Shown here: piece after piece, positions 36,380 to 36,648 of the stretch
Layout: each line of letters opens with the position of its first letter
Position numbering within the stretch: the stretch's first letter is position 1
Sequence record: PQ287651.1
DNA: 64,000 bases
Direction: 5' to 3' (one strand)
Source: Pseudomonas phage HHBS18_1
The notes under the pieces: generated by a model
The model's database searches: none
Told to the model about the DNA's origin: nothing
Seen by the model: only the letters and a program-made list of their open reading frames with translations
Made by a program: the position numbers and the translations under genes

Positions 36380-36648
36380 GACTAAGTAACAACGGTCCAT
36401 GTAAAACTGTGTGAATTCAGGGGACAGCCAGAACGGCCAATCCTGAGCCAAGCTAGAGTGATCTAGAAAGGTGCAACGACTATCGAAACCACGGCGGGAG
36501 CCGGAAGGGAGTAGAGTAGGGTCAAGTGACCCGAAGCGCACAGGGCGCGAGAGCGTCATGATATAGTCTGGTCTGCATGGGAACATGCAGCGGTAACCCT
36601 TGAGCAAGGTTACGGGGGAGGATTAACGACCCTCCCTGAACACAACGG
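36380..36648 (+). other. group I self-splicing intron (269 nt, no ORF) in DNA polymerase gene
   Basis: P1: exon AUGGAUU pairs with intron GGUCCAU (36394-36400) with U.G at splice site; P7 strands GACUA (36478-36482) / UAGUC (36564-36568); S-element-like GAUAUAGUC; terminal G 36648; splicing gives in-frame YGFTYGAQAGK matching polymerase motif B; total 2715 nt = 905 codons. Confidence 0.75.

What the first reader, a model, noticed from the sequence alone, without database searches (positions are those of the whole stretch)
36380..36648. Group I self-splicing intron splitting the T7-like DNA polymerase gene
The family-A polymerase ORF stops at 36387 in the middle of conserved motif B (...AKNVKYG), and the rest of the protein (YGAQAGKVAKTIGADL...) resumes 36649 in a frame that is open but has no start codon.

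The 269-nt gap shows group I hallmarks. A 7-bp P1 pairs exon AUGGAUU (36373-36379) with internal guide GGUCCAU (36394-36400), with the canonical U.G at the 5' splice site. P7 strands are GACUA (36478-36482) and UAGUC (36564-36568), the latter within an S-element-like GAUAUAGUC. The intron ends in G (36648) and is densely hairpinned.

Splicing 36379 to 36649 regenerates a split Phe codon and gives ...KNVKYGFTYGAQAGK..., matching T7 gp5 YGFLYGAG. The spliced CDS is exactly 905 codons. There is no homing endonuclease ORF; a free-standing HNH gene lies 4 kb downstream.
Basis: partly seen in the sequence, partly recalled or inferred. Interest (0 to 1): 0.7.

Follow-up and report, generated by a model that had tools for sequence, protein, structure and literature searches.

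The report
Group I intron in phage polymerase
A 269-base self-splicing group I intron with no endonuclease gene interrupts the DNA polymerase gene of this Pseudomonas aeruginosa phage; it is real but an ordinary, known kind of element, and its true borders lie one base to the left of those proposed.

Summary
The finding is real. Rfam's group I intron model hits the spot at 71.9 bits (cut-off 50, E 2.7e-16). A P1-P9.2 structure drawn on it is kept by compensatory changes in relatives: 95.9% of cells pair, 33 of 73 pairs change on both sides, and 0 of 500 shuffles do as well. Sister phages (PA10, MAG1, PaP1) carry an uninterrupted 2715-nt polymerase gene, exactly the predicted spliced length.

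The window is a Pakpunavirus (P. aeruginosa myophage), not a T7-like phage. The genus holds four alleles at this site: no intron, a 263-nt intron, the 269-nt intron seen here, and a 710-nt form with an endonuclease VII-type homing endonuclease ORF in loop L6a. The window's intron is an ORF-less derivative whose P6a is capped by a GUGA tetraloop.

One correction. Both splice sites fall in doubled letters (UU and GG), so the register is ambiguous from this sequence alone. Comparison places the intron at 36379-36647, not 36380-36648. The junction codon is then T|GT (Cys), not TTT (Phe).

The HNH gene about 4.85 kb downstream is equally conserved in intron-less genomes and looks unrelated. The ORF-containing form at this site was reported in 2015. 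Splicing itself is inferred, not shown. Interest is low.

The parts
34380..36378 (+). Exon 1 of the family-A DNA polymerase gene. It ends ...AAA UAU GGA U, the first base of the junction Cys codon.
   Evidence: ORF list; junction comparison with intron-less and other intron alleles; Pfam DNA_pol_A on the spliced product.
36379..36647 (+). Group I intron of subgroup IA2 type, 269 nt, with no ORF.
   Evidence: Rfam RF00028 at 71.9 bits, E 2.7e-16; insert length of 269 against PA10, MAG1 and PaP1; register fixed by 20Sep416/Ab02 and by the KIL3/Roth32 3' tails.
36648..37363 (+). Exon 2 of the polymerase gene. It begins GU ACA UAC GGC; the stop codon is 37361-37363.
   Evidence: The spliced protein matches the PA10 polymerase at 899 of 905 positions.
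36371..36402 (+). P1: exon plus the first two intron bases (36371-36380) paired with the internal guide sequence (36393-36402). The splice-site wobble is U36378.G36395. The L1 loop is 36381-36392.
   Evidence: MFE fold. Compensatory G-C to A-U change between exon codon position 3 and the guide (36377/36396) relative to the 20Sep416 and Ab02 alleles.
36387..36389 (+). UAA stop in the exon-1 frame, 9 nt into the intron and inside L1. It ends translation before the ribozyme core.
36407..36413 (+). P3 5' strand; pairs with 36537-36543.
   Evidence: Rfam alignment; 4 of 6 pairs change on both sides, 100% paired.
36417..36446 (+). P4 (36417-22 with 36441-46) enclosing P5 (36427-29 with 36435-37, loop AGAAC).
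   Evidence: Two of the three P5 pairs are compensatory even within the genus.
36447..36472 (+). P6 (36447-49 with 36470-72) and P6a (36453-57 with 36462-66), capped by the GUGA tetraloop 36458-61. In Ab02-type alleles this loop is 453 nt and holds most of the endonuclease ORF.
36478..36482 (+). P7 5' strand GACUA; pairs with UAGUC 36564-36568, which is preceded by the conserved J8/7 sequence AUGAUA.
   Evidence: Invariant in all 7 sequences compared; Rfam consensus GAUAUAGUC.
36492..36532 (+). P7.1 (36492-95 with 36500-03, GGGA loop) and P7.2 (36519-23 with 36528-32), joined by a linker ending in GUA. This is the IA2 signature.
   Evidence: 3 of 4 and 4 of 5 pairs compensatory. IA2 definition from PMC3428280.
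36537..36543 (+). P3 3' strand.
36544..36557 (+). P8 hairpin with a GAGA tetraloop.
   Evidence: 5 of 5 pairs change on both sides.
36564..36568 (+). P7 3' strand UAGUC.
36573..36590 (+). P9 hairpin with a GGAA tetraloop.
36593..36636 (+). Peripheral hairpins P9.1 (36593-601 with 36606-13) and P9.2 (36616-21 with 36631-36).
   Evidence: All 6 P9.2 pairs are compensatory. P9.1 is supported only within the genus.
36638..36647 (+). Conserved 3' tail GAACACAACG, ending in the terminal guanosine (omega-G) at 36647.
   Evidence: The same tail ends the KIL3 and Roth32 introns, where only one G is available.

Best explanation
Window 36379-36647 is a 269-nt group I intron of IA2 architecture: P1, P3-P9, P7.1/P7.2, P9.1/P9.2 and no P2. 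It interrupts the essential family-A DNA polymerase gene of a Pakpunavirus phage within motif B, after the first base of a Cys codon.

The inferred mechanism is the standard group I pathway. The pre-mRNA folds, and the internal guide sequence (36393-36402) pairs with the end of exon 1 to form P1, with the U36378.G36395 wobble marking the 5' splice site. A free guanosine bound in P7 attacks after U36378. Omega-G36647 then takes the G-site, and the exon-1 3'-OH attacks after it. This joins ...GGA U to GU ACA... and gives one mRNA for a 904-aa polymerase reading ...KNVKYGCTYGAQAGK...

The intron has no endonuclease gene. It is a deletion derivative of the 710-nt allele found at the same site in sister phages. 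That allele carries an endonuclease VII-type homing endonuclease ORF that starts in L6a and runs on into the ribozyme core. The 269-nt form is therefore immobile on its own. It persists by vertical descent or by recombination of flanking DNA. Because the intron splits the polymerase sequence at its insertion site, this allele probably cannot be cut by the endonuclease of ORF-carrying relatives; the endonuclease's target has not been mapped.

Shown here: the sequence, the structure, the covariation, the allelic series and the exact length. Inferred: catalysis, the register of the splice sites, and the evolutionary direction.
For: - Rfam Intron_gpI scores 71.9 bits against a cut-off of 50, E 2.7e-16, and is the only Rfam hit in the 64 kb.
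- Intron-less alleles in close relatives: PA10 has an uninterrupted 2715-nt CDS. PA10, MAG1, PaP1, EM and phiK7A1 align across the junction with an insert of 0, against 269 here.
- The spliced product matches PA10 polymerase at 899 of 905 positions, with no difference near the junction, and hits Pfam DNA_pol_A.
- Covariation on a 7-sequence alignment: 95.9% of cells pair against 28-40% with slid partners; 33 of 73 pairs are compensatory; 0 of 500 shuffles reach the observed values.
- P1 shows a compensatory change between a synonymous exon position and the guide sequence: GGG/CCC in 20Sep416 and Ab02, GGA/UCC here.
- Register: in 20Sep416, Ab02 and PaGz-1 only GGGU|...CG|GU keeps the frame, giving TGT. 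All intron-less relatives have TGT. The KIL3 and Roth32 introns share the tail GAACACAACG with a single G.
- ORF-less derivative: Ab02's L6a is 453 nt and holds most of an Endonuclease_7 ORF (PF02945, 1.8e-22). The window has a GUGA tetraloop on the same stem.
- Related introns are known to splice: LUZ24 in vivo (PMC10914365) and Pf-WMP3 (PMC3428280).
Against: - No RNA or protein data exist for this allele, so splicing and the exact junction are inferred.
- The UU/GG doubling means the sequence alone cannot separate the Cys register from the Phe register.
- No convincing P10 pairing was found. The best candidate is a 4-bp helix with a bulge, read by eye.
- P7 is invariant in the comparison set, so covariation neither supports nor contradicts it.
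- Public records annotate two separate polymerase CDSs.
- P1 and P9.1 could not be aligned with the distant relatives, so their support comes only from within the genus.
Confidence: 0.9

Rival explanations
1. It is the same intron in the reader's register: 36380-36648, with the 5' splice site after U36379 (paired with G36394), omega-G at 36648, and a junction codon UU|U giving Phe.
For: U36379.G36394 is also a wobble pair within P1, and 36648 is a G. This register keeps the frame and gives YGFTYG, which resembles T7 YGFLYG. Phe at this position occurs in T7-like and LUZ24 polymerases.
Against: The nearly identical 20Sep416 intron has the same 3' half and the same start of exon 2. It has only one usable exon U, so its omega-G is the G corresponding to 36647. 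KIL3 and Roth32 end GAACACAACG with a single G. The guide G that pairs with the splice-site U in 20Sep416 and Ab02 aligns with G36395, not G36394. All five intron-less relatives encode Cys.
Confidence: 0.08
2. The polymerase is a true split gene. It is made as two polypeptides, about 669 aa plus 229 aa starting at GTG 36674, which assemble without RNA splicing. The intervening RNA is a dead relic.
For: Many GenBank records annotate two CDSs, as 'part I' and 'part II'. An in-frame GTG exists at 36674.
Against: - The break falls inside motif B, and a GTG start would lose the residues CTYGAQAGK.
- No Shine-Dalgarno sequence precedes GTG 36674.
- The ribozyme is complete and its helices are kept by compensatory changes, including a P1 change that involves the exon.
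- Sister phages have a single 905-codon gene.
- The 269-nt intron sequence is at least 99% identical in 35 phage records.
Confidence: 0.02
3. The ORF-less intron is moved in trans by the free-standing HNH endonuclease at 41499-42062, by 'collaborative homing' as with F-CphI and the cyanophage psbA intron.
For: An HNH-like gene lies about 4.85 kb downstream on the same strand. A precedent for this arrangement is cited in PMC3428280.
Against: The same gene sits at the same position in intron-less PA10 (187/188 aa identical), in ORF-carrying Ab02 (183/188) and in PaoP5 (171/188). It does not track the intron. If it cut the intron-less polymerase allele, it would cut PA10's own gene. Sister phages carry a dedicated EndoVII-type endonuclease inside this very intron.
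Confidence: 0.04

Closest known systems
[quoted passage not shown] 2015 (PMC4482731)
   Same: Same genus, same gene and same insertion point, T|GT of the Cys codon. The ribozyme is homologous, at about 86% identity over the shared parts, with the same helices P1-P9.2.
   Different: In the window, L6a is a 4-nt GUGA loop rather than 453 nt holding most of a 159-aa endonuclease ORF. L1 is 6 nt longer, and the exon/guide pair is A-U rather than G-C. There are compensatory differences in P5, P7.2, P8, P9.1 and P9.2.
The 263-nt ORF-less intron allele of Pakpunavirus 20Sep416, LPS-5, PaSz-1 and ZGC
   Same: 97.6% identical from intron nucleotide 18 or 19 to the 3' end. Same site, also ORF-less, same GUGA cap.
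   Different: The P1 loop and guide sequence differ (AAGAGAUCAAGCCCAU against UGACUAAGUAACAACGGUCCAU), as do two P5 pairs.
LUZ24 DNA polymerase group I intron (Ceyssens 2008), with splicing confirmed in vivo by ONT-cappable-seq (PMC10914365)
   Same: A P. aeruginosa phage with a family-A polymerase and an intron in motif B, also placed after the first base of a codon. Its EndoVII-type endonuclease is 54.8% identical to the Ab02 intron ORF.
   Different: A different phage genus, Bruynoghevirus. The insertion lies 6 nt upstream, in the Tyr codon of AKTFI-Y-AF. The intron is 669 nt and carries an ORF. The ribozyme shows only patchy nucleotide similarity, 76% over 54 nt.
Subgroup IA2 introns in DNA polymerase genes of T7-like and other phages: PhiI/W31 (Bonocora & Shub 2004), Pf-WMP3, SPO1/Bastille, phiL7
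   Same: IA2 architecture with P7.1 and P7.2, no P2, and the endonuclease ORF, where present, in P6a. All sit in conserved, functionally important parts of a family-A polymerase (PMC3428280).
   Different: Their insertion sites are 674, 676 and 881 in E. coli Pol I numbering. This one is at about residue 764; that number comes from my own alignment of motif B with E. coli Pol I, not from a tool. Yepe2 and Vi06 gp5 are interrupted at AKTF|IYGF, about three codons upstream. The window's intron has no ORF.
Nearest ORF-less ribozyme relatives found: introns in the Pseudomonas phage KIL3 terminase gene, the Klebsiella phage Roth32 helicase gene and Aeromonas phage Aes508 gp43
   Same: Rfam scores of 94.7, 84.7 and 73.3 bits. 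The core sequence is shared. KIL3 and Roth32 also share the 3' tail GAACACAACG (Aes508 ends GAACACCUG).
   Different: They sit in different host genes. Roth32, and by eye KIL3, have a hairpin between P1 and P3 that looks like a P2. Peripheral elements differ.

Membership tests
Group I catalytic intron (Rfam RF00028) | Score at or above the curated gathering threshold of the covariance model | tested here: met
   71.9 bits against a cut-off of 50, E 2.7e-16, full model 1-253.
Group I catalytic intron (Rfam RF00028) | Conserved core helices P3-P8, including the P3/P7 pseudoknot, supported by covariation | tested here: met
   P3, P4, P5, P6, P6a and P8 are 94-100% paired, each with compensatory changes. 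P7 pairs in every sequence but never varies. Overall 95.9% paired and 0 of 500 shuffles.
Group I catalytic intron (Rfam RF00028) | P1 formed by the 5' exon and an internal guide sequence, with a U.G wobble at the 5' splice site | tested here: met
   A 10-bp P1 with U36378.G36395. There is a compensatory exon/guide change relative to sister alleles.
Group I catalytic intron (Rfam RF00028) | Terminal guanosine (omega-G) at the 3' end | tested here: met
   G36647 ends the conserved tail GAACACAACG shared with KIL3 and Roth32.
Group I catalytic intron (Rfam RF00028) | P10 pairing between the guide region and the 3' exon | tested here: inconclusive
   Read by eye from the sequence, the only candidates are weak: G36648-C36390, U49-A89, A50-U87 and C51-G86 with a bulge. 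The 20Sep416 allele does not conserve this.
Group I catalytic intron (Rfam RF00028) | Guanosine-dependent self-splicing that ligates the exons | not testable with these tools
   Needs RT-PCR or an in vitro splicing assay. Exon ligation is supported only indirectly, by intron-less alleles of exactly the predicted sequence length.
Subgroup IA2 | Extra helices P7.1 and P7.2 between P7 and P3', linked by G-U-A (criterion as stated in PMC3428280) | tested here: met
   P7.1 is 36492-95 with 36500-03. P7.2 is 36519-23 with 36528-32. Both show compensatory changes. The linker ends ...GAGUA just before P7.2. The criterion is quoted.
Mobile (homing) group I intron | An intron-encoded homing endonuclease ORF | tested here: not met
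   L6a is 4 nt, GUGA, and no endonuclease ORF is present. The 32-aa ORF that phage JS labels 'HNH homing endonuclease' lies in the ribozyme core, in a different frame from the tail of the Ab02 endonuclease ORF (frame worked out by hand from the sequences).
Mobile (homing) group I intron | Presence/absence polymorphism at an identical site among close relatives | tested here: met
   Four allelic states at one nucleotide position within the genus: 0, 263, 269 and 710 nt.
Collaborative homing (ORF-less intron plus free-standing endonuclease) | A free-standing endonuclease whose presence tracks the intron, or which targets the intron-less site | tested here: not met
   The 41499-42062 HNH is 187/188 aa identical in intron-less PA10 and is present in all allele types. 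Cleavage specificity cannot be tested here.
Naturally split polymerase (two polypeptides) | An independent translation start and ribosome-binding site for the downstream part, and no splicing element between the parts | tested here: not met
   The only in-frame start is GTG 36674, with no Shine-Dalgarno sequence. A complete, covarying ribozyme lies between the two parts.

The most novel reading that the evidence does not exclude
The ORF-less intron may not be a neutral relic. It may be kept in a large share of Pakpunavirus genomes because it splits the polymerase sequence at the intron insertion site, where the endonuclease VII-type homing endonuclease of ORF-carrying sister phages probably acts. 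It would then work as an immunity allele in phage-versus-phage interference during co-infection, without the cost of carrying the endonuclease. The synonymous exon changes around the site (TAC to TAT, GGG to GGA, ACG to ACA, GGT to GGC) would be co-conversion or target-escape marks.
Probability: 0.3. Interest if true: 0.4.

Novelty: new member of a known kind. Interest (0 to 1): 0.2.

Why it matters
The main consequence is for annotation. In dozens of deposited Pakpunavirus genomes, several from phage-therapy work, the essential DNA polymerase is recorded as two CDSs or as 'hypothetical proteins'. Spurious small ORFs are called inside the ribozyme, one of them labelled 'HNH homing endonuclease'. 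The correct model is one spliced 904-aa polymerase with a Cys at the junction.

Biologically, the genus offers a compact natural series at a single nucleotide position: no intron, two ORF-less introns and one ORF-carrying intron. That series could be used to study the loss of homing endonucleases, exon co-conversion and intron-mediated competition between co-infecting therapeutic phages.

It does not change what is known about group I introns.

Tried and rejected
- I searched the held literature for 'Pakpunavirus' or 'PaoP5' together with 'intron'. Nothing describes the ORF-less allele. Only Essoh 2015 mentions the Ab02 insert.
- Putzeys 2024 profiled PAK_P3, a Nankokuvirus, and reports splicing only for LUZ24, so it gives no direct evidence for this intron.
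- Rfam at the gathering threshold missed the ORF-carrying introns of Ab02, YS35, PPWS1, Vi06, Draal02 and Yepe2, probably because of their large inserts. For covariation I therefore trimmed the L6a loop of Ab02 and PaGz-1 by hand.
- I did not build a custom covariance model. A model of about 290 positions would probably exceed the calibration limit, and a MAFFT alignment with a hand-drawn structure was enough.
- MAFFT could not align P1 or P9.1 of the distant relatives. Those helices rest on within-genus evidence only.
- I looked by eye for a P10 helix that would fix the 3' splice site and found nothing convincing.
- The single-sequence MFE fold recovers P1, P6a, P7.1, P7.2, P8 and P9 but mispairs the P3/P7 core, as expected for a pseudoknot. 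I did not use it for the core.
- A link between the downstream HNH and the intron was rejected.
- The tRNA scan of the window found none.

Full report
**What the window is.** The polymerase region (34380-37363) is 94-99% identical to about 125 Pseudomonas aeruginosa phage records of the genus Pakpunavirus. The best match is vB_PaM_EPA3 at 98.9%; PaoP5, K8 and K5 are about 94.5%. These are myophages of about 93 kb, not T7-like phages. Only the polymerase and primase-helicase are annotated as 'T7-like' family proteins.

**The observation.**
- The upstream ORF (34380-) reads ...RSPAKNVKYGLTK and stops at TAA 36387-36389.
- The downstream polymerase frame is open from 36530. Its first in-frame start is GTG 36674, with no Shine-Dalgarno sequence.
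- Removing 269 nt joins the two frames into a 2715-nt CDS of 904 codons plus stop.
Exon AUGGAUU pairs with GGUCCAU, and the helix extends to 10 bp, 36371-80 with 36393-402. GACUA 36478-82 pairs with UAGUC 36564-68.

**Is it a group I intron?** A scan of the whole window against Rfam at curated thresholds gives one hit. It is Intron_gpI (RF00028) at 36322-36590 on the + strand, 71.9 bits against a cut-off of 50, E 2.7e-16, covering the full model.

From that alignment and the usual conventions I drew a structure in window coordinates.

| Helix | 5' strand | 3' strand | Note |
|---|---|---|---|
| P1 | 36371-80 | 36393-402 | exon plus two intron bases, paired with the guide |
| P3 | 36407-13 | 36537-43 | |
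| P4 | 36417-22 | 36441-46 | |
| P5 | 36427-29 | 36435-37 | |
| P6 | 36447-49 | 36470-72 | |
| P6a | 36453-57 | 36462-66 | GUGA loop |
| P7 | 36478-82 | 36564-68 | |
| P7.1 | 36492-95 | 36500-03 | |
| P7.2 | 36519-23 | 36528-32 | |
| P8 | 36544-48 | 36553-57 | |
| P9 | 36573-79 | 36584-90 | |
| P9.1 | 36593-601 | 36606-13 | |
| P9.2 | 36616-21 | 36631-36 | |

There is no P2.

I tested this structure on an alignment of seven sequences:
- the window;
- the 263-nt allele of phage 20Sep416;
- the Ab02 and PaGz-1 alleles with the L6a interior removed;
- related ORF-less introns from the KIL3 terminase gene, the Roth32 helicase gene and Aes508 gp43. These score 94.7, 84.7 and 73.3 bits against Rfam.

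The result:
- 95.9% of cells form standard pairs, against 28-40% when the 3' partners are slid by 1-3 columns.
- 33 of 73 pairs show changes on both sides.
- None of 500 column shuffles reaches any observed measure.
- P3, P5, P6a, P7.1, P7.2, P8 and P9.2 each carry several compensatory pairs.
- P7 pairs everywhere but never varies, so it is uninformative.
- P1 and P9.1 could be compared only within the genus.

P7.1 and P7.2, joined by a linker ending in GUA, together with the absence of P2, match the IA2 description used for the PhiI, W31 and Pf-WMP3 polymerase introns (PMC3428280).

**Intron-less alleles.** A conceptual spliced junction (200 + 200 nt) matches many sister phages in a single uninterrupted piece: PA10, MAG1, PaMx12, Zigelbrucke, LCK69, C11, PaP1 and EM. 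PA10 annotates one 2715-nt polymerase CDS, exactly the predicted spliced length. Measured between fixed exon anchors, the insert is as follows:

| Insert | Phages |
|---|---|
| 0 nt | PA10, MAG1, PaP1, EM, phiK7A1 |
| 263 nt | 20Sep416 |
| 269 nt | this window, PaoP5, JS |
| 710 nt | Ab02, PaGz-1 |

The spliced protein matches the PA10 polymerase at 899 of 905 aligned positions (stop included), with no difference near the junction. It hits Pfam DNA_pol_A.

**The exact borders.** The sequence around the splice sites is GGAUU|G...ACAACGG|U. Two equal-length introns keep the frame. The alternative 36379-36647 gives U|GU, Cys. Four lines of comparison favour the second.
- Every intron-less relative has TGT, Cys, at this codon: PA10, MAG1, PaP1, EM and phiK7A1.
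- In 20Sep416, Ab02 and PaGz-1, exon 1 ends GGGU and is followed by AAG. Only that U can form the splice-site wobble, so only ...CG|GUAC keeps the frame. The 3' half of the 20Sep416 intron and its exon-2 start are identical to the window's.
- The KIL3 and Roth32 introns end with the same tail GAACACAACG, followed by A. Their terminal G is therefore unambiguous and corresponds to G36647.
- The guide G that pairs with the splice-site U in the sister alleles (G of GCCCAU) aligns with G36395 (G of GUCCAU), whose partner is U36378.

The neighbouring pair is G-C in those alleles (exon GGG with guide CCC) and A-U here (exon GGA with guide UCC). This is a compensatory change involving a synonymous codon position, and it argues that P1 is under selection. 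I put about 0.9 on the Cys register given that the intron splices. Only cDNA or a junction peptide can settle it.

**Relation to the ORF-carrying form.**
- In Ab02, PaGz-1 and YS35 the P6a stem (CCUAGA with UCUAGG) encloses a 453-nt loop.
- That loop holds most of a 159-aa ORF that matches Pfam Endonuclease_7 at 1.8e-22. By my count from the locus coordinates, the ORF's last 19 or so codons run on into P6a', P7 and P7.1.
- In the window the same stem is closed by GUGA. The 269-nt and 263-nt forms are therefore ORF-less versions of the same intron.
- The ORF is at least 95% identical in 17 phage records. Its next relatives are in Yersinia T7-like phages at 50%. It is 54.8% identical to LUZ24 gp35.
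- Rough counts, including RefSeq/GenBank duplicates: about 125 records carry this polymerase. Of these, 35 match the 269-nt intron at 99% or more and 13 match at 95-99%, the 263-nt type. Seventeen carry the ORF. Roughly half are therefore intron-less.

**Insertion site compared with known polymerase introns.**
- Published sites in E. coli Pol I numbering are 674 (SPO1, SP82, Bastille, Pf-WMP3), 676 (phiL7) and 881 (PhiI, W31) (PMC3428280).
- LUZ24's intron lies after the first base of the Tyr codon in AKTFI-Y-AFIYGAG.
- Yepe2 and Vi06 gp5 are interrupted at about AKTF|IYGFLYG.
- The Pakpunavirus site is after the first base of the Cys codon in AKNVKYG-C-TYGAQ. This is 6 nt downstream of the LUZ24 site and about three codons downstream of the Yepe2 site. 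It corresponds to about residue 764 of E. coli Pol I, by my own alignment of motif B.

Motif B thus holds a cluster of neighbouring but distinct intron sites.

**The downstream HNH.** ORF 41499-42062 scores weakly against Pfam HNH, 18.8 bits against a cut-off of 21.4. Relatives annotate it as an HNH endonuclease. It sits directly after the exonuclease gene in PA10, PaoP5, JS and Ab02, which together cover three of the four allele states. Compared with the window's copy it is 187/188 aa identical in intron-less PA10, 183/188 in Ab02 and 171/188 in PaoP5. Nothing ties it to the intron.

**Mechanism.** The inferred pathway is standard group I chemistry: guanosine attacks after U36378, omega-G36647 docks, and the exons are ligated. 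The exon-1 frame meets UAA nine bases into the intron, inside L1. This would release ribosomes before they reach the core, as in other phage introns (Pf-WMP3). Related introns splice in vivo (LUZ24; Pf-WMP3). No experiment covers this allele.

**What is known.** Essoh et al. 2015 reported the Ab02 insert in the polymerase gene and related it to the LUZ24 intron (PMC4482731). I found no description of the ORF-less alleles in the searchable library. The GenBank records I inspected annotate two CDSs or hypothetical proteins and no intron.

**Verdict.** This is a real, canonical IA2 group I intron: an ORF-less member of an intron lineage already reported at this site in this genus. It is useful for annotation and as a natural allelic series, but it is not surprising.

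Noticed in passing
window 36471-36566 (+): Phage JS annotates the equivalent 32-codon ORF as 'HNH homing endonuclease' (JS_gp52), and 20Sep416 calls it hypothetical. It lies entirely within the ribozyme core, from J6/7 to P7'. 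It is in a different frame from the C-terminal tail of the real Ab02 endonuclease ORF. It is almost certainly a spurious call.
   Followed up: partly
window 36623-37012 (-) and 36296-36607 (-): Antisense ORFs overlap the intron and exon 2. PaoP5 annotates one of them as a hypothetical protein (PaoP5_106). They are probably artefacts of gene callers filling the apparent gap between the two polymerase 'parts'.
   Followed up: no
window 41499-42062 (+): A free-standing HNH-like gene directly follows the exonuclease gene (40450-41502). It is conserved at 91-99% aa identity in genus members whatever their polymerase intron state, including intron-less PA10. Its target is unknown.
   Followed up: partly
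window 36369-36661 compared with L003 (PA10) and L004 (Ab02): All differences in the exon bases next to the intron are synonymous and track the allele type: TAC/TAT, GGG/GGA, ACG/ACA, GGT/GGC. TAT is needed for the U36374-A36399 pair in P1. The pattern looks like co-conversion tracts or target-site escape.
   Followed up: partly
L015 (Pseudomonas phage KIL3) 1115-1366 and 2003-2225: KIL3 gives two separate Rfam group I intron hits, at 94.7 and 68.9 bits. The first lies inside the terminase large-subunit gene, which is annotated as a two-piece join. The second starts near the annotated end of that gene and runs past it, and is followed by what looks like an ORF start in its P9 region.
   Followed up: no
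L016 (Klebsiella phage Roth32) 1155-1365: An unannotated ORF-less group I intron (84.7 bits) lies between a 'hypothetical protein' CDS and a 'DnaB-like helicase C-terminal domain' CDS. This looks like another split-gene misannotation of the same kind.
   Followed up: no
window 1-64000: ARAGORN finds no tRNA genes in the window, although Pakpunavirus genomes are reported to carry 11-14 tRNAs (PMC4482731, PMC3634792). The tRNA cluster presumably lies outside this 64-kb stretch.
   Followed up: no
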